From positions 205,898 through 269,897 of the forward strand of contig CAVUDT010000003.1 in assembly GCA_963740275.1 (NCBI GenBank): 64,000 nucleotides of DNA, in the 5' to 3' direction. Below, in pieces: positions 1,918 through 55,279 of this stretch. Under the pieces are notes generated by a model. It was not told the origin of the DNA. It was given only the letters and a program-made list of their open reading frames with translations, and did not search any database. Each line of letters starts with the position of its first letter. The stretch's first letter is position 1. This DNA comes from an uncultured Acidobacteriota bacterium (GTDB lineage: Bacteria; Acidobacteriota; Vicinamibacteria; Vicinamibacterales; 2-12-FULL-66-21). The position numbers and the translations under genes are program-made.

Positions 1918-2019
1918 GGTTCCAAAGGTTCCAAAGGTTCCAAAGGTTCGGAACCCGGAACCCGGAACCCTTGGAACCTGGAACCGTTTAGACCGGAACC
2001 CTTAGAACCTTTGAGAACC
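1918..2019. repeat. inverted pair of tandem arrays: (GGTTCCAAA)x3 + GGTTC, then (GGAACCC)x3 and about 5 degenerate GRAACC units
   Basis: Read directly: GGTTCCAAAGGTTCCAAAGGTTCCAAAGGTTC|GGAACCCGGAACCCGGAACCCTTGGAACCTGGAACCGTTTAGACCGGAACCCTTAGAACCTTTGAGAACC. It fills the whole convergent spacer between stop 1905-1907 (+) and stop 2019-2021 (-). Confidence 0.9.
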
Positions 2020-3101
2020 TAAAGAGGTGCGGGCAGCTGGATTTCGAACCGGGAGCCTCGATCGAGGCCGGGGCTGGTGACCCGGATGGCGCCGCCGTGC
2101 AGCTCCACCAGGTGACTGGCGAGCGCGAGACCGAGGCCGAGGCCCGCGCTGTTGCCCTCCCCCGGACCACCCTGCCAGAAGCGCTGAAACACCTTCGGCA
2201 GGTCCTGCCTTGCGATGCCTGCGCCGGTGTCTTCCACCGCGATTCTCAGCAGCCGGCCATCCTGCTCAGCGCTGACCGTGATCGAGCCCCCCATCGGAGT
2301 GAACTTGAGCGCATTGGTCAGCAGGTTCCATAGCACTTGCGCGAGCCGGTGGCTGTCGCCGTTGACGATCAGCCCGGGCTGAATGGCCGTATGGAGCTCG
2401 AGCGACTTGTTGAGGGCAGCCGGGCGCAACGACGCGACCGATTGCTCGACCAGCCGGGTCAGGTCGAAAGGCTGCAGATCCACCGACATCTTGCCGGTCA
2501 CGATCCTCGACGAGTCGAGGACGTCGTCGACCAGCCGGCCGAGCGAGGTCGCGTTTCGTGAGATGACGTCGAGCACTCTTGGCAGCTGGTCGGCCGGCAG
2601 CGAGCCGTTCTGCAGCATCTGGACGTAGCCGAGCACCGTGTTCAGGGGCGTGCGGAGCTCGTGCGAGAGCGTGGCCAGGAACTGGTCCTTCGCGCGGCTG
2701 GCCTCCTCGACCGCTCGTTGCAGCCGCTTCTGCTCGCTGATGTCCCTGGCGATCTTCGAGGCCCCGACGATGGTGCCGTCGGGGGCGTGGATCGGGGAGA
2801 CGGTCAGCGAGATCTCCAGCAGTCCGCCGTCCTTGCGCTGCCTGATCGTCTCGTAGTGCTCGACGCTGTTCCCGGCGCGGATCTGGCCGATGACGAACTC
2901 CTCCTCGGCGAAACGGTCGCGGGGGATGATCAGCGAGATATGCCGGCCGACCGCTTCCTCGGCGGTGTATCCGAACAGCCGTTCCGCTGCCTTGTTCCAG
3001 CTGACGACGACGCCGTTCAGGTCCTTGCTGATGATGGCGTCGTCAGACGACGAGATGATTGCGGCGAGGTGGCCGGATGGCTCCGTGGATCCAGCAATCA
3101 T
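2019..3101 (-). CDS. PAS-domain sensor histidine kinase (PAS-HisKA-HATPase_c, soluble)
   Basis: Track ORF of 360 aa. PAS: DAIISKDLNGVVVSWNKAAERLFGY. H-box: FLATLSHELRTPLN. N/G boxes: NLLTNALKFTP, DTGAGI, GLGLGLA. Confidence 0.9.
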   Translation of the reverse strand: MIAGSTEPSGHLAAIISSSDDAIISKDLNGVVVSWNKAAERLFGYTAEEAVGRHISLIIPRDRFAEEEFVIGQIRAGNSVEHYETIRQRKDGGLLEISLTVSPIHAPDGTIVGASKIARDISEQKRLQRAVEEASRAKDQFLATLSHELRTPLNTVLGYVQMLQNGSLPADQLPRVLDVISRNATSLGRLVDDVLDSSRIVTGKMSVDLQPFDLTRLVEQSVASLRPAALNKSLELHTAIQPGLIVNGDSHRLAQVLWNLLTNALKFTPMGGSITVSAEQDGRLLRIAVEDTGAGIARQDLPKVFQRFWQGGPGEGNSAGLGLGLALASHLVELHGGAIRVTSPGLDRGSRFEIQLPAPL

Positions 3102-7665: not shown

Positions 7666-7677
7666 GGTCAAAAATGT

Positions 7678-7738
7678 CTGAATGCTGAATGCTGAATGCT
7701 GAAAATTTGGGTTCTAAGTTCTTTGTTCTGAGTTCTGA
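7678..7738. repeat. two adjacent heptamer arrays: (CTGAATG)x3 and (GTTCTRA)x4
   Basis: Read directly: CTGAATGCTGAATGCTGAATGCTGAAAATTTGG GTTCTAAGTTCTTTGTTCTGAGTTCTGA. It lies in the convergent spacer between stop 7665 (+) and stop 7742 (-) and is noticeably AT-richer than its surroundings. Confidence 0.9.
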
Positions 7739-7741
7739 GTT

Positions 7742-31621: not shown

Positions 31622-33025
31622 ATGACGGCCAAAAAGAAGAATCGTGTGCTCGCCATTGACGATGAGCCGTCGATCATCGAATGGCTGAAGATTCTGCTCG
31701 AACATCAGGGCTACGAGGTCCGCACCGCGATGATCGGCACACGCGGCGAGGAGATCTTCAAGACCTGGCGGCCTGACGTCGTCGTCACCGACATGATGCT
31801 TCCGGACATCGACGGCCTCGAGCTGCTGCGCCGGTTCAAGCTGGCGCATCCCGATACCGAGGTCATTGTCGTGACCGGGCACGGGTCGGTGCAGAAGGCG
31901 GTCGAGGCGATGAAAGCGGGGGCCTTCGAGTTTGCCGAGAAGCCGATCGACGCCGACGCGCTCCTCGCCAAGCTGGAGCGTGCGATCGAACGCCGCGAGC
32001 TCCTCGGCGAGAACCTGCTGCTCAAGCAGAAGATCGAGAATCAGTTCCGCTTCGGCAACATCATCGGCAAGAGCAAGAAGATGCATGAGCTGCTCGAGCT
32101 GGTCGAGAGCGTGGCCGGGAGCGACGCCAACATCCTGATCCAGGGAGAGAACGGCACCGGCAAGGAGCTGATCGCCAACGCGCTGCACTACAACAGCAAG
32201 CGGGCGAAAGGGCCGTTCATCAAGATCAACTGCGCCGCGATCCCGAAAGACCTGATCGAGTCGGAGCTGTTCGGCTACAAGAAAGGGGCGTTCACCGGCG
32301 CCCAGACCGACAAGGAAGGACTCTTCGAGATGTCGGAGGGGGGGTCGCTCCTGCTCGACGAGATCGGCGAGATGCCTCCTTACCTTCAGACCAAGCTGCT
32401 GCGGGTGCTGCAGGAGCGGGAGTACCGTCCGATCGGGAGCGACCGGATCGTGCGGGTGGACTTCCGCCTGATCTGCGCAACCAATATCGATCTCGACGCG
32501 GCGCTGCGGGACGGCAAGCTGCGCGAAGACCTCTACTTCCGGATCAACACGATCACGCTGCGCGTGCCGCCGCTGCGGGAGCGTACCGAAGACATCCCGC
32601 TCCTCTGCGAACACTTCCTCGAGAAGTACCGCCAGCGGCACGGCCGCAACGTGAAGTCGATCGCGCCGGCCGCCTATCACGTGCTGATCCGGCACCGCTG
32701 GCCGGGCAACGTCCGGGAGATCGAGAACGTCGTCGAGCGCGGCGTGCTGGTCGCGAAGGGGAACGAGATCACCGTCAACGATCTGCCCGAGTCGTTGCGG
32801 ACCGAGACGTCGACGACCACCGAGTTCGTGATCCCGCCGCACCGCACGCTCGCCGAGATCGAGCGCATGGCCATCCTCCAGACGCTCCAGCGCACCAACT
32901 GGAACAAGCAGGAGGCCGCCCAGATCCTCGGCCTCTACCGCCCGACCCTGTACAGCAAGATGAAGAAGCACGAGATCCAGGACGGCGGCAAGAGCGGCGC
33001 GCGCCGCGCCGCGGCACAAGCCTGA
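31622..33025 (+). CDS. sigma-54-dependent response regulator (REC, AAA+ sigma-54 interaction domain, Fis-type HTH; NtrC family)
   Basis: Track ORF of 467 aa. Contains VLAIDDEPSI, DVVVTDMMLPDIDG, Walker A GENGTGKE, the GAFTGA loop, ESELFGY, and a C-terminal HTH (NWNKQEAAQILGLYRPTLYSKMKKH). Confidence 0.92.
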   Translation: MTAKKKNRVLAIDDEPSIIEWLKILLEHQGYEVRTAMIGTRGEEIFKTWRPDVVVTDMMLPDIDGLELLRRFKLAHPDTEVIVVTGHGSVQKAVEAMKAGAFEFAEKPIDADALLAKLERAIERRELLGENLLLKQKIENQFRFGNIIGKSKKMHELLELVESVAGSDANILIQGENGTGKELIANALHYNSKRAKGPFIKINCAAIPKDLIESELFGYKKGAFTGAQTDKEGLFEMSEGGSLLLDEIGEMPPYLQTKLLRVLQEREYRPIGSDRIVRVDFRLICATNIDLDAALRDGKLREDLYFRINTITLRVPPLRERTEDIPLLCEHFLEKYRQRHGRNVKSIAPAAYHVLIRHRWPGNVREIENVVERGVLVAKGNEITVNDLPESLRTETSTTTEFVIPPHRTLAEIERMAILQTLQRTNWNKQEAAQILGLYRPTLYSKMKKHEIQDGGKSGARRAAAQA

Positions 33026-33238
33026 AAAAGGGGTGCGAAGGGGTGCGGAAGGGTGCGCGAGGGGGGTGCGGGGGGTGCAGGGGGGTGCGGAAAGGGTGCG
33101 GGGGGTGCGGGTAATGCGCATTTAGCGCGCGCACACTACCGCACCTTGAAGGGCGCCCTCTCGACCTGCCCGCACTCTTGAACTGCCTTCCGAACCCGCA
33201 CCCTTCCGCACCCCCCCGCACCCTTTTCGCACCCCTTT
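33026..33238. repeat. long imperfect hairpin built from about 9 G-rich GGGTGCGG-type units (33030-33112) and about 6 complementary CCGCACCC units (33139-33237)
   Basis: Read directly. The base of the stem is AAAGGGGTGCGAA (33027-33039) pairing with TTCGCACCCCTTT (33226-33238). The left arm meets the G>=3 N1-7 x4 G-quadruplex pattern. The structure starts 1 nt after the TGA of the activator gene and ends 6 nt before the mlaE ATG. Confidence 0.9.
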
Positions 33239-33243
33239 AGAGC

Positions 33244-34056
33244 ATGGATCGCACCTTGCAGCTGAGCCGGGTAATGGCAGCTTTGGCGACGTCCGCTACC
33301 AACTACCTCGCCGTGGCGGGGGAGTTTGCCGTGTTTGCGGGCAAGGCGGCGCGGCAGGCGTTCCTGCCACCATTCGAGTTCCGCGAGACGGTTCGCCAGC
33401 TCTATGAGCTCGGGCTCCGGTCGGCGCCGCTGATTGCGGTCTCGGGCATGGCGGTGGGGGTGGTGCTGTCGATGCACACCCGTGCGTCGCTCGAGCGGTT
33501 CGGGGCCGAGTCGATGATTCCCGCCGGTCTGGCGATCGCGCTCGTGCGCGAAACCGGTCCGCTGACCGCGGGGCTGCTCCTCTCCGGGCGGATCGGCGCC
33601 GGGATCGGCGCCGAGCTGGGGGCGATGCGCGTCACCGAGCAGATCGACGCCCTCGAAGCCTCGGCGGTCGATGCGTTCCGTTACCTGGTGGTGACCCGGG
33701 TGGTAGCCTGCGTCATCGCGCTGCCGCTGCTCACCACGATCATGAATTTCGCCGGCATGCTCGGCGGCTTCATCGCCGAGACGGCATCGACCGGGATGTC
33801 GCTGGGTCTGTACTTCGACCGCGCCTTTGCGCTGATCGACATGAGCGACTACGTTCCGGCGACGCTGAAGACGATGGTCTTCGGCTTCATCATCGCGACG
33901 GTCTCGTCGTTCCTCGGGTTCACGACGAGCTCCGGGACCGAGGGGGTCGGCCGGGCGTCGACCCGCGCTGTGGTCCTCTCGTCGATCATGATCATCGTTG
34001 CCAACGTCGTGCTCGTGCGGCTGATCTTCTTCATCTTCCCCCAGGCGTCAGGATGA
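33244..34056 (+). CDS. mlaE: MlaE-family ABC transporter permease
   Basis: Track ORF of 270 aa. Contains LVRETGPLTAGLLLSGRIGAGIGAELGAMRVTEQIDALE, typical of MlaE. Confidence 0.9.
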   Translation: MDRTLQLSRVMAALATSATNYLAVAGEFAVFAGKAARQAFLPPFEFRETVRQLYELGLRSAPLIAVSGMAVGVVLSMHTRASLERFGAESMIPAGLAIALVRETGPLTAGLLLSGRIGAGIGAELGAMRVTEQIDALEASAVDAFRYLVVTRVVACVIALPLLTTIMNFAGMLGGFIAETASTGMSLGLYFDRAFALIDMSDYVPATLKTMVFGFIIATVSSFLGFTTSSGTEGVGRASTRAVVLSSIMIIVANVVLVRLIFFIFPQASG

Positions 34057-51534: not shown

Positions 51535-52056
51535 ATGGCTGGAATGAATTCGATGCTGTTGGCCGTGCTTCTCCTGGCTCCGGTTCTCGTCCAGACCGGT
51601 GAGCTGACCTTTACTGCTCCGGCGGCGTGGAAGCCGCGGCCGGCGGCGAGCACGATGCGGGTCGCGGAGTTCGTGGTGCCGAAGACCGCACCCGACACCG
51701 AGGATGCGGAAGTGATCGTGTATTTCTTCGGCGGCACCGGCGGAAGCGTCGACGCCAACATCGAGCGCTGGGTCGGGCAGTTTCAGCAGCCGTCCGGCGG
51801 CGCGGCCACCGGCAGCCGCGGCGCGCTGACGGTCGGGAAATTGAAAGTGACGACCGTCGACGTGAGCGGAACCTACGTCGCGGAAGTCCGTCCGGGCGCG
51901 GCGGAGCGACACAACAAACCGAACTACCGAATGCGCGCCGCCGTCGTCGAAACCCCGCGAGGCCCGTACTTCGTCAAGTTCACCGGCCCCATCGCCACCG
52001 TGACCCAGGCCTCCGCCGCCTTCGACCAGTTCATCAGAGGGCTGGGGTTCAAGTAG
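51535..52056 (+). CDS. hypothetical exported protein
   Basis: Track ORF of 173 aa. Signal-like N-terminus MNSMLLAVLLLAPVLVQ (alternative start 51544). No family recognised. Its TAG is the first unit of the following heptamer array. Confidence 0.5.
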   Translation: MAGMNSMLLAVLLLAPVLVQTGELTFTAPAAWKPRPAASTMRVAEFVVPKTAPDTEDAEVIVYFFGGTGGSVDANIERWVGQFQQPSGGAATGSRGALTVGKLKVTTVDVSGTYVAEVRPGAAERHNKPNYRMRAAVVETPRGPYFVKFTGPIATVTQASAAFDQFIRGLGFK

Positions 52057-52150
52057 CTGCCAGCTGCCAGCTACCAGCTACCAGCTACCAGCTACCAGCT
52101 GCCAGCTGCCAGCTACCAGCTGCCAGCTACCAGCTATCAGCTGTCAGCTG
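52053..52150. repeat. 14 tandem heptamers YCAGCTR
   Basis: Read directly: GTAGCTG CCAGCTG CCAGCTA x4 CCAGCTG x2 CCAGCTA CCAGCTG CCAGCTA x2 TCAGCTG x2. The CAGCTG core is itself palindromic, so the array is self-complementary in many registers. Confidence 0.92.
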
Positions 52151-52189
52151 TGCTAGCCGGTAGCCCACCGGCCTCCGTCACCTCACAGC

Positions 52190-52312
52190 GCCCCTCCGCC
52201 TTGGCCGCACTCCTCCGCACCCCTCCGCACCCCTCCGCACCCTCCGCACCCCCCGCACCCTTTTGCGCACCCTTCCGCACCCCCGCACCCGCCGCACCCT
52301 TCCGCACCCCCA
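52190..52312. repeat. about 10 tandem CCGCACC(C)-type units with 7-10 nt period (G-rich GGGTGCGG in the sense of the adjacent minus-strand permease)
   Basis: Read directly: CTCCGCACCCCTCCGCACCCCTCCGCACCCTCCGCACCCCCCGCACCCTTTTGCGCACCCTTCCGCACCCCCGCACCCGCCGCACCCTTCCGCACCCCC. This is the same unit as the right arm of the 33026-33238 structure. It ends about 6 nt before the permease stop at 52318. Confidence 0.92.
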
Positions 52313-54767: not shown

Positions 54768-55279
54768 GTCACGTGCGATGTGCTACGTGCTACGTGCTGG
54801 GTGCCGATGTGCGACGTGCGACGTGCGGTGCTGTGTGCGATGTGCGGTGCTACGTGCGACGTGCGGTACGTGCGACGTGCGACGTGCGAAGTGCTGCGTG
54901 CGAGCGTGCGGTGCGAAGTGCTGTGTGCGGTGCGAAGTGCTGTGTGCGGTGCGAAGTGCTGTGTGCGGTGCGAGGTGCTGTGTGCGGCGCGAGGTGCTGT
55001 CGGCGGTGCTGTGTGCGGTGCAGGTATTGTGTGCGGTGCGACGCGGCCGTGCCGTGCCACCTGCTGCGCGCGGGCCGCACGTGGCACAGCACACAGCACG
55101 CACGTAGTACCTATCACCGCACGTCGCACGTGCACGCACGTCGCACGTAGCACGCACGTCGCACCGCACGTCGCACGTAGCACGCACGTGGCACGCAGCA
55201 CCGCACGTAGCACCTAGCACCGCACGTAGCACATCGCACGTACGCACGCCGCACGTAGCACCTAGCACCTAGCACGTGT
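54768..55279. repeat. about 510-nt composite repeat: G/T-rich arm of GTGCNNN heptamers (including a 19-mer GTGCGGTGCGARGTGCTGT x5 at 54906-55000) and a C/A-rich arm of NNNGCAC heptamers, mirrored about 55060-55080
   Basis: Read directly. The left arm starts CACGTGCGATGTGCTACGTGCTACGTGC and the right arm ends GCACGTAGCACCTAGCACCTAGCACGTG. The apex is GTGCCAC (55054-55060) / GTGGCAC (55081-87). It fills the spacer between the aminotransferase stop (55280) and the permease start (54729). Confidence 0.92.

What the first reader, a model, noticed from the sequence alone, without database searches (positions are those of the whole stretch)
33026..33238. G-quadruplex-capable GGGTGCGG array plus complementary CCGCACCC array between the sigma-54 activator gene and the mla operon
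One nucleotide after the activator's TGA, about nine units of the GGGGTGCG(G/A) type follow one another. G-runs of 3-6 are separated by TGC(G)-type loops of up to 7 nt, the canonical G4 pattern. After a central GC palindrome region (GCGCATTTAGCGCGCGC, AGGGCGCCCT), about six CCGCACCC units follow. The two ends pair perfectly for 13 bp (AAAGGGGTGCGAA / TTCGCACCCCTTT). The structure ends 6 nt before the mlaE ATG, so there is no room for a conventional promoter or SD outside the repeat. Expression of mlaEFD therefore either reads through this structure or starts inside it. The same unit recurs at 52190-52312.
Basis: seen in the sequence. Interest (0 to 1): 0.65.

Follow-up and report, generated by a model that had tools for sequence, protein, structure and literature searches.

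The report
G-rich tandem-repeat hairpin between genes
The spacer between a sigma-54 activator gene and the mla lipid-transport genes of this soil acidobacterium is filled by one of about 740 fast-changing short tandem-repeat arrays in the genome, a repeat type already described in other bacteria, and the mla genes have their own conserved promoter just downstream of it.

Summary
Positions 33026-33238 hold about 8 GGGGTGCGG-type units, a unique centre, then 4-6 CCGCACCC units. As RNA it folds to -142.8 kcal/mol (z = -7.7). The G arm is a canonical G4 motif (G4Hunter 1.9).

It is not a locus-specific device. The genome carries about 740 short-period arrays (583 of period 7). They are mostly intergenic and include 67 inverted pairs and about 74 arrays of this GGTGCG family. 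Same-genus genomes with the same activator-mlaE synteny have only 6-42 nt in this spacer. The closest relative has an unrelated heptamer pair there, and another has a different palindromic element.

A sigma-54 -24/-12 box (TGG-N8-TTGCA, 33245-33260) is invariant in ten genomes. It overlaps the supposed ATG at 33244, and the real mlaE start is the invariant ATG at 33274. So mla transcription need neither cross the repeat nor start inside it.

The element matches the convergent G-rich repeat pairs described in Xanthomonas/Nostoc (Rehm 2015) and Geobacter (Aklujkar 2009), whose function is unknown. Arm order is strictly fixed by family, which simple slippage does not explain. No read or transcript data could be obtained.

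The parts
31622..33025 (+). NtrC-type sigma-54 activator gene (receiver, Sigma54_activat AAA+, AAA lid, HTH_8 domains); the stop TGA is at 33023-33025
   Evidence: Pfam hits; translation; activator-mlaE synteny is kept in 11 related genomes
33026..33112 (+). G-rich arm: about 8 tandem units of GGGGTGCGG(A) type, period 9-10; canonical G4 motif
   Evidence: G4Hunter 1.9 and G4-model fold
33113..33194 (.). Centre: unique in the genome, with GC palindromes and decayed CGCAC-type units (CGCACACTA, CCGCACCTT, CCCGCACTC)
   Evidence: BLAST of 33110-33196 against the genome hits only itself; sequence; TRF period-17 row at 33154-33187
33195..33238 (+). C-rich arm: 4 exact CGCACCC units, the reverse complement of the G arm (G-rich on the minus strand)
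   Evidence: I1 is 31 nt at 90% complementary; I14 is 13 nt at 100%
33245..33260 (+). Inferred sigma-54 promoter TGGATCGCACCTTGCA (GG at 33246-33247, GC at 33258-33259); predicted transcription start about 33270-33272
   Evidence: GG, CTTGCA and the spacing are invariant in 10 genomes (alignment A1); rpoN is present in the genome; the activator gene is adjacent
33274..34056 (+). mlaE with revised start (260 aa); the ORF call from 33244 over-extends into the promoter
   Evidence: The ATG is invariant in A1; the upstream 10 codons carry stops or 1-2-nt indels in relatives; the Pfam MlaE domain covers residues 39-248
52055..52150 (+). (AGCTRCC)n heptamer array that starts inside the stop codon of the upstream gene; left partner of the second GGGTGCG-family array
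52172..52310 (-). Second array of the same family, about 11 GGGTGCGG units on the minus strand, just downstream of a minus-strand gene; forms a heterologous inward-facing pair with the AGCTRCC array

Best explanation
This is one local copy of a genome-wide class of short tandem-repeat arrays, mostly heptamers but here a 9-10-nt G-rich variant. The arrays fill free DNA between functional elements and often occur as inward-facing inverted pairs. The class was described in Xanthomonas/Nostoc and Geobacter, and its function is unknown. At this locus the array arose or expanded in a lineage-specific way inside a spacer that was originally 6-40 nt long, between the activator stop codon and the sigma-54 promoter of mlaEFD (shown by comparison with relatives). 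Growth is most likely by slippage or unequal exchange in whole units. The most uniform units lie at the outer edges and decayed units in the centre (shown as a trend; the mechanism is inferred). Consequences (inferred): mlaEFD is transcribed from its own sigma-54 promoter at 33245-33260, downstream of the structure, so it need not cross the repeat. Read-through RNA from the activator gene would fold into a hairpin of about -143 kcal/mol. The 3-4 surplus G units, or the G arm before the C arm is made, could form a G4. That would at most act as a 3'-end barrier or insulator for the activator transcript. The insert also moves any enhancer sites in the activator's 3' coding region about 210 bp further from the promoter. 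It is not a conserved or dedicated regulator of mla.
For: Class membership: 740 arrays of period 6-12 (583 of period 7) in 6.76 Mb. About 85% of the period-7 bases lie outside my ORF calls, and there are 67 inverted pairs. The GGTGCG family has 80 arrays of at least 3 units as first called (74 after merging neighbouring fragments), unit spacing mostly 9-10 nt, with 10 G-first pairs and 0 C-first pairs. Position rules match Rehm et al. 2015 (PMC4692102). Inverted pairs lie between 26 convergent, 28 co-directional and 4 divergent gene pairs, against a background of 20/59/21%. Single arrays lie closer to the ORF on their 5' side (107 vs 48, p = 2e-6). In this family, arrays start 1-11 nt after a stop codon in 18 of 29 cases. 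Not conserved: the spacer is 6-42 nt in G004, G001, G010 and G007. G002 has an unrelated AACTCCA/TGGAGTT pair and G006 a different palindromic element. The unit family is patchy: 169 pattern hits in G000, 87 in G009, 53 in G005, 150 in G310, and none in most of 401 genomes of the phylum. The centre is unique in the genome. Promoter. Structure. Polar decay: the first third of units matches the consensus at 0.877 against 0.851 for the last third (p = 1e-4), and only the 3' flank keeps residual similarity.
Against: There is no transcript, read or strain-level evidence (closed; empty). The promoter, the transcription start and any terminator or insulator effect are therefore inferred. The predicted start lies only 2-4 nt before the ATG, an unusual near-leaderless layout. 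Only 18% of pair ends carry a T-run (against 2.7% background), and no canonical terminator is found here, so a general terminator role is weak. Plain slippage does not explain the 134/134 family-specific arm order, the 51/59 orientation rule in heterologous pairs, or the genome-specific unit variants shared by dispersed loci. My gene calls are a crude ORF/GC3 heuristic that covers 75% of the genome.
Confidence: 0.6

Rival explanations
1. One reading: the G4-capable array and its complementary arm form a dedicated structural switch that controls expression of mlaEFD, with transcription reading through it or starting inside it.
For: The G arm is strongly G4-prone and the hairpin is very stable. 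It sits directly between a regulator gene and its likely target operon. Three genomes independently have hairpin-type inserts in this spacer.
Against: A conserved sigma-54 promoter lies downstream of the structure. Four same-genus genomes have no insert, and the closest relative has an unrelated one. About 74 arrays of the same family and about 740 of the class lie next to unrelated genes. Only 2 arrays in the genome lie next to a TGG-N8-TTGCW site.
Confidence: 0.08
2. The arrays are multi-site binding platforms for an unidentified DNA- or RNA-binding protein (the 'global regulator' idea proposed for the Geobacter paired sites). Unit variants co-evolve with that protein in each genome.
For: Genome-specific unit variants are shared by many dispersed loci: GGGGTGCGTCR in G005, GGGTGCGGRC in G310, GGGTGCGA in G148. 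Orientation relative to the neighbouring ORF is fixed even without a complementary partner. Aklujkar et al. 2009 proposed this for paired tandem octa-, nona- and heptanucleotide sites (PMC2700814).
Against: This one genome uses dozens of unrelated unit families, which would need many proteins. Copy number falls off monotonically from 3 to 11 with no preferred size. Neighbouring genes share no common function. No candidate protein was identified.
Confidence: 0.12
3. The arrays are footprints of a directional DNA process: a non-autonomous mobile element, or templated repeat addition at DNA ends or hairpins. They would not be ordinary microsatellites that arose in place.
For: Arm order is strict (134/134; 10 vs 0 in this family). 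The orientation rule holds in heterologous pairs (51/59). There is a polar decay gradient. Genome-specific unit variants occur across loci. The terminal 13 bp are a perfect inverted repeat.
Against: The centre is unique, and no second full-length copy exists. No target-site duplication is visible at the ends. Arm lengths are unequal and variable. The decay gradient puts the oldest units in the centre, the opposite of simple addition at a central break. No associated enzyme was identified.
Confidence: 0.12
4. Assembly or consensus artefact of a long-read metagenome assembly.
For: Earlier unchecked notes report frame breaks at homopolymer runs in this assembly, so G-run lengths may be wrong.
Against: Hundreds of arrays with ordered positions relative to genes occur on all 9 contigs. 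The same family is present in independent assemblies G003, G005, G009, G148 and G310, while the reversed control pattern is absent or nearly absent throughout. The class is published from finished genomes.
Confidence: 0.02

Closest known systems
Convergent G-rich heptamer repeat pairs GGGAATC (Xanthomonas) and GGGGA(C/T)T (Nostoc), Rehm et al. 2015, PLoS One 10:e0144275 (PMC4692102)
   Same: Both are G-tract-containing short tandem units, dispersed genome-wide and biased to non-coding DNA. Both are often two arrays in convergent orientation on opposite strands. [quoted passage not shown] Length and sequence vary between close relatives. Both are G4-capable, and the function is unknown.
   Different: The unit here is 9-10 nt (GGGGTGCGGA) rather than 7. 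The phylum is Acidobacteriota. There is no preference for four units. This genome also holds dozens of non-G-rich unit families that obey the same rules. G4 formation is only predicted here, not measured.
Paired tandem-repeat sites of Geobacter metallireducens, classes 1-3 (GTTGCTYN, TCTCCGTS[Y], MTYCTGA), and the GGACCGG x4 elements, Aklujkar et al. 2009, BMC Microbiol 9:109 (PMC2700814)
   Same: Both have three to five tandem 7-9-nt units, occur as pairs on opposite strands at variable distance, have tens of copies per genome, and lie next to unrelated genes.
   Different: The units are different. The Geobacter sites were interpreted as binding sites of unknown global regulators. No G4 aspect was raised and no arm-order statistics were given.
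Heptanucleotide repeats of cyanobacteria (STRR) and TAACTGA repeats of Beggiatoaceae, Cyanobacteria and Bacteroidetes (MacGregor 2015, PMC4679880); long heptameric SSRs noted by Mrazek et al. 2007 (as cited in those papers)
   Same: Both are abundant intergenic short tandem arrays with a patchy phylogenetic distribution and no known function.
   Different: Those are mostly direct repeats close to start codons, with few inverted pairs, and they are not G-rich.
REP/BIME extragenic palindromes of enterobacteria (own knowledge, not tested here)
   Same: Both are intergenic hairpin-forming repeats, enriched after gene ends, that can stabilise upstream mRNA or attenuate read-through.
   Different: REPs are single conserved palindromic units spread by a RAYT transposase, not tandem arrays. 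Here the centre is unique and the arms are microsatellite-like.

Membership tests
Convergent G-rich short tandem-repeat pairs (Rehm et al. 2015 type) | Head-to-tail units of 6-9 nt, each with a G-tract of at least 3, in at least 4 consecutive copies (G4 motif) | tested here: met
   8 units with G3-G6 runs; a (G3+N1-7)x4 match at 33030-33085; G4Hunter 1.9. Unit length is 9-10 nt, at the upper edge of the range.
Convergent G-rich short tandem-repeat pairs (Rehm et al. 2015 type) | Heptameric unit | tested here: not met
   Unit spacing in this family is mostly 9 (96 cases) or 10 (129 cases) nt. In the genome as a whole, 583 arrays with at least 3.5 copies have period 7.
Convergent G-rich short tandem-repeat pairs (Rehm et al. 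2015 type) | Many copies dispersed over the genome, over-represented in non-coding DNA | tested here: met
   74 merged arrays of the family lie on 8 of 9 contigs. For the class, 76% of array bases lie outside ORF calls that cover 72% of the genome.
Convergent G-rich short tandem-repeat pairs (Rehm et al. 2015 type) | Paired sites always in convergent orientation (G-rich array on the plus strand, then on the minus strand) | tested here: met
   10 pairs are G-first and 0 are C-first in the family. In all families, 134/134 arms follow a fixed order.
Convergent G-rich short tandem-repeat pairs (Rehm et al. 2015 type) | Closer to the ORF on the repeat's 5' side; rare between divergent ORFs | tested here: met
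   Median distance is 9.5 nt on the 5' side against 53 nt on the 3' side (107 vs 48 arrays). Only 4 of 58 pairs lie between divergent genes, against 21% background (with crude gene calls).
Convergent G-rich short tandem-repeat pairs (Rehm et al. 2015 type) | Preference for exactly four units | tested here: not met
   Unit counts fall monotonically: 3 units in 32 arrays, 4 in 17, 5 in 10, 6 in 8, and so on.
Convergent G-rich short tandem-repeat pairs (Rehm et al. 2015 type) | K+-dependent G4 formation of the oligonucleotide in vitro; transcribed in vivo | not testable with these tools
   Only predictions are available.
MITE / REP-type mobile element | Several copies that share a conserved core and ends, with target-site duplication | tested here: not met
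   The centre 33110-33196 hits only itself. Other hits are array-to-array matches of at most 97 nt, plus one 220-nt, 69%-identity alignment to another pair of the same family at C8:449456-449656. No duplication flanks 33026/33238.
Intrinsic (Rho-independent) terminator | GC-rich stem followed by a U-tract | tested here: inconclusive
   The consensus scan finds none. The stem is followed by T3 on the plus strand and T5 on the minus strand. Genome-wide, only 18% of pair ends have at least 5 T in 8 nt, against 2.7% background.
Sigma-54-dependent promoter (for 33245-33260) | GG-N10-GC spacing with a TGG...TTGCW consensus, conserved in non-coding context, with rpoN and an activator present | tested here: met
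   GG and CTTGCA are invariant in 10 genomes, and indels lie between the box and the ATG. rpoN is at C6:108250-108723. The activator has a Sigma54_activat domain. The transcription start is not mapped.
Any Rfam RNA family | Score at or above the family's gathering threshold | tested here: not met
   Only sub-threshold hits to plant or animal miRNA-precursor hairpins, at most 39 bits against thresholds of 83-168.

The most novel reading that the evidence does not exclude
The arrays are not passive microsatellites. They would be the product of a directional, genome-encoded process that writes a genome-specific unit outward from a seed towards the neighbouring functional elements, for example templated repeat synthesis on hairpin or broken ends. 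That would explain three things: the strict arm order in homologous and heterologous pairs, the gradient from young units on the 5' side to old units on the 3' side, and the unit variants shared by dozens of dispersed loci but differing between related genomes. The mla spacer, occupied by unrelated arrays in G000 and its closest relative G002, would then be a site that was rewritten rather than colonised twice.
Probability: 0.12. Interest if true: 0.8.

Novelty: new member of a known kind. Interest (0 to 1): 0.3.

Why it matters
For this locus the practical result is a corrected annotation. mlaE starts at 33274, and mlaEFD appears to be driven by a conserved sigma-54 promoter next to its NtrC-type activator gene. 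That is a testable regulatory link for an Mla-type lipid transporter in Acidobacteriota. The repeat itself adds a 9-10-nt G-rich variant, in a new phylum, to a repeat class that has been known for over fifteen years without a function. The strict arm order, the polar decay and the genome-specific unit variants measured here constrain any model of how such arrays arise. Natural alleles with and without the insert at one promoter-proximal spacer (G000, G002 and G006 against G004) offer a ready comparison for testing whether these hairpins or G4s affect neighbouring genes at all.

Tried and rejected
- Known RNA family: the Rfam scan gave only sub-threshold miRNA-precursor look-alikes, which are generic long hairpins.
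- Sigma-70 promoter or canonical terminator in 32800-33500: none found.
- MITE-like element: rejected, because the centre is unique in the genome and no full-length second copy exists.
- Link between arrays and sigma-54 promoters: only 2 arrays lie within 40 nt of a TGG-N8-TTGCW site near an ORF start. The 160 such sites in the genome are not above my hand estimate of about 250 by base composition.
- General terminator role: T-runs after pair ends are enriched only modestly, partly because arrays abut reversed stop codons.
- Preference for four units, as reported for Xanthomonas: not seen.
- Strain-level alleles: two exact-pattern scans of metagenome contigs and an exact-protein look-up of the activator found nothing.
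- Enhancer site for the activator in its own 3' coding region: the alignment shows only codon-level conservation plus a CTGTACAG palindrome. That is not enough to call a site.
- The search for related loci in genome contigs returned only relatives with at most 72% identity over a near-full-length match. This named the lineage (Acidobacteriota, Bryobacterales-like MAGs) but did not help with the spacer.

Full report
**1. The observation**

The sequence is as described.
- The activator ORF (31622-33025) ends with TGA at 33023-33025.
- From 33026 there are eight G-rich units of the type (A)AGGGGTGCGG, up to 33112.
- The centre contains GCGCATTTAGCGCGCGC and AGGGCGCCCT.
- From about 33128 there are decayed CGCAC-type units, and from 33195 to 33238 four exact CGCACCC units.

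Supporting measurements:
- Tandem Repeats Finder reports period 9-10 arrays on both sides.
- The outermost 13 nt pair perfectly (I14).
- Eleven of the window's 35 GGGTGCG hits fall in these 213 nt, and ten more in 52216-52309. Shuffles give about 24 hits per 64 kb.
- As RNA, the stretch 33020-33250 folds to -142.8 kcal/mol (z = -7.7). As DNA it folds to -80.8 kcal/mol (z = -8.6).
- The G arm is a canonical G4 motif with G4Hunter 1.9. With ViennaRNA's G4 model it folds to -64.6 kcal/mol alone, against -16.6 without the model.
- In the full spacer, the predicted optimum keeps the long hairpin and places a G4 in the surplus G units. The energy is -144.8 against -142.8 kcal/mol.

**2. The surroundings**

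Pfam confirms the neighbours.
- Upstream is an NtrC-type activator with receiver, Sigma54_activat, AAA-lid and HTH_8 domains.
- Downstream are MlaE, an ABC ATPase, and an MlaD-OmpA protein.

The genome (6.76 Mb, 9 contigs, 67% GC) has rpoN. Related MAGs are named Acidobacteria, Bryobacterales, Bryobacteraceae or Solibacteraceae.

**3. The array is one of a genome-wide class**

- TRF on the whole genome gives 740 arrays of period 6-12 with at least 3.5 copies, and 583 arrays with at least 3.5 copies have period 7.
- About 85% of the period-7 array bases lie outside my conservative ORF calls, which cover 72% of the genome.
- Sixty-seven neighbouring arrays form inverted pairs.
- The window alone holds further examples: 1918-2020, 7673-7741, 52055-52310 and the large 54771-55277 block.
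- The GGTGCG family has 80 arrays of at least 3 units as first called (74 after merging neighbouring fragments). Unit spacing is mostly 9-10 nt, and copy numbers fall monotonically from 3 to 11.
- The centre of the element is unique in the genome, so it is not a MITE with a conserved core.

**4. Rules the class obeys here**

(a) Arm order is fixed by family. All 134 arms of the 67 homologous pairs follow it. So do 51 of 59 arrays in heterologous neighbouring pairs (p = 9e-9). In the GGTGCG family there are 10 G-first pairs and no C-first pair.

(b) Pairs lie between 26 convergent, 28 co-directional and only 4 divergent gene pairs. The background is 20/59/21%. By my hand calculation, chi-square is about 24 with 2 degrees of freedom.

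(c) Arrays abut the flanking ORFs, with a median distance of 6 nt. Single arrays are nearer to the ORF on their 5' side (107 vs 48). In this family, arrays start 1-11 nt after a stop codon in 18 of 29 cases. They keep 25 nt or more from gene starts.

(d) The 5' edge is sharp, and the 3' side decays.

These are the position rules reported for GGGAATC and GGGGAYT repeats by Rehm et al. 2015. Paired tandem octa-, nona- and heptanucleotide sites were also listed for Geobacter metallireducens. My gene calls are a crude heuristic, so the flank statistics are approximate.

**5. The array is not conserved at this locus**

The activator-mlaE synteny holds in 11 related genomes. The spacers differ:
- G004, G001, G010 and G007 have only 6-42 nt.
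- G002 is the closest relative, with 98% activator identity. It has an unrelated AACTCCA/TGGAGTT heptamer pair.
- G006 has a different double-hairpin palindromic element.

The GGGTGCG x3 pattern is abundant only in G000 (169 hits), G009 (87), G005 (53), G310 (150) and G148 (22), each with its own unit variant. It is absent from most of 401 genomes of the phylum. The reversed control pattern is essentially absent.

**6. The promoter**

The ten closest genomes were aligned from the end of the spacer into mlaE.
- GG and CTTGCA are invariant, with GG-N10-GC spacing. This is the sigma-54 -24/-12 consensus.
- An invariant ATG lies 14-16 nt further on.
- The stretch between the box and the ATG varies by 1-2-nt indels. 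The first ten codons of the 33244 ORF carry stops in G004 and G011.

So the ATG at 33244 belongs to the -24 box (TGG at 33245-33247). mlaE starts at 33274, and the predicted transcription start lies about 2-4 nt before it, which is nearly leaderless. This last point is an inference. The repeat ends 6 nt before the -24 box, so it fills exactly the free DNA between the stop codon and the promoter.

**7. What it most likely does**

Shown:
- The structure potential and G4 potential.
- Membership of the class.
- The lack of conservation at this locus.
- A conserved promoter downstream of the repeat.

Inferred:
- Read-through RNA from the activator gene would end in, or be blocked or processed at, the hairpin/G4.
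- mla transcription starts beyond the structure.
- The insert moves any enhancer sites in the activator's 3' coding region about 210 bp away from the promoter.

No canonical terminator is present. T-runs after pair ends are only modestly enriched genome-wide, so a general terminator role is weak. I could not locate an enhancer site.

**8. What remains unexplained**

Simple slippage does not predict the fixed arm order, the polar decay, the genome-specific unit variants across loci, or the occupation of the same spacer by unrelated arrays in sister genomes. These features keep open a directional, templated or protein-guided origin. I give that reading about 0.12.

**9. Limits**

- Two metagenome pattern scans and one exact-protein look-up found no strain-level alleles.
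- Earlier unchecked notes on this genome mention homopolymer frame breaks, so G-run lengths are uncertain.
- Earlier notes of this scan report the same repeat class and arm-order rule in many other genomes. I used them as leads and tested the rule independently in this genome.

**10. Verdict**

The feature is real and well above chance. The element is a new member (9-10-nt G-rich unit, Acidobacteriota) of a known but functionally unexplained repeat class.

Noticed in passing
window 33245-33276: A conserved sigma-54 -24/-12 box lies only 14-16 nt upstream of the invariant mlaE ATG. This implies a nearly leaderless mlaEFD mRNA and sigma-54/NtrC-type control of an Mla-type transporter. The annotated start at 33244 is an over-extension.
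   Followed up: partly
L002 (G002:C173), about 1388-1497 of the reverse-complemented locus (about 2314-2423 in locus coordinates), between activator stop and mlaE: The closest relative has an unrelated heptamer pair, (CAAACTY)n ... (GGAGTTK)n, that fills the same spacer up to the -24 box. Either the site was colonised twice or the unit was replaced.
   Followed up: partly
L005 (G006:C210) 1405-1500: The same spacer holds a different element: two copies of GCCCGACCT-N3-AGGTCGGGC hairpins in inverted orientation, which looks like REP/BIME.
   Followed up: no
L010 (G005:C66), contig end: The contig stops 28 nt upstream of the -24 box of the mlaE promoter. G005 is rich in GGGGTGCGTCR arrays, so a repeat array may have broken the assembly there.
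   Followed up: no
window 52054-52150: The (AGCTRCC)n array begins inside the TAG stop codon of the upstream gene (51535-52056). It is followed by an unrelated (CCGCACCC)n array that lies just downstream of the convergent gene. This is an inward-facing pair that cannot form a hairpin.
   Followed up: partly
window 1918-2020 and 7673-7741: Two further small array pairs: (GGTTCCAAA)3.6 followed by (CGGAACC)5, and (AATGCTG)4 followed by (GTTCTGA)4. Each starts about 8-11 nt after a stop codon.
   Followed up: no
genomes G005, G310, G148: Each genome that carries GGGTGCG arrays uses its own unit variant at many dispersed loci: GGGGTGCGTCR, GGGTGCGGRC and GGGTGCGA. The variants are uniform within a genome but differ between genomes.
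   Followed up: partly
window 32935-32960: The stretch CTGTACAGCAAGATGAAGAAGCA in the activator's HTH-coding 3' end is invariant or nearly invariant at all codon positions in 9 genomes and contains the palindrome CTGTACAG. It could be a coding constraint or a binding site.
   Followed up: no
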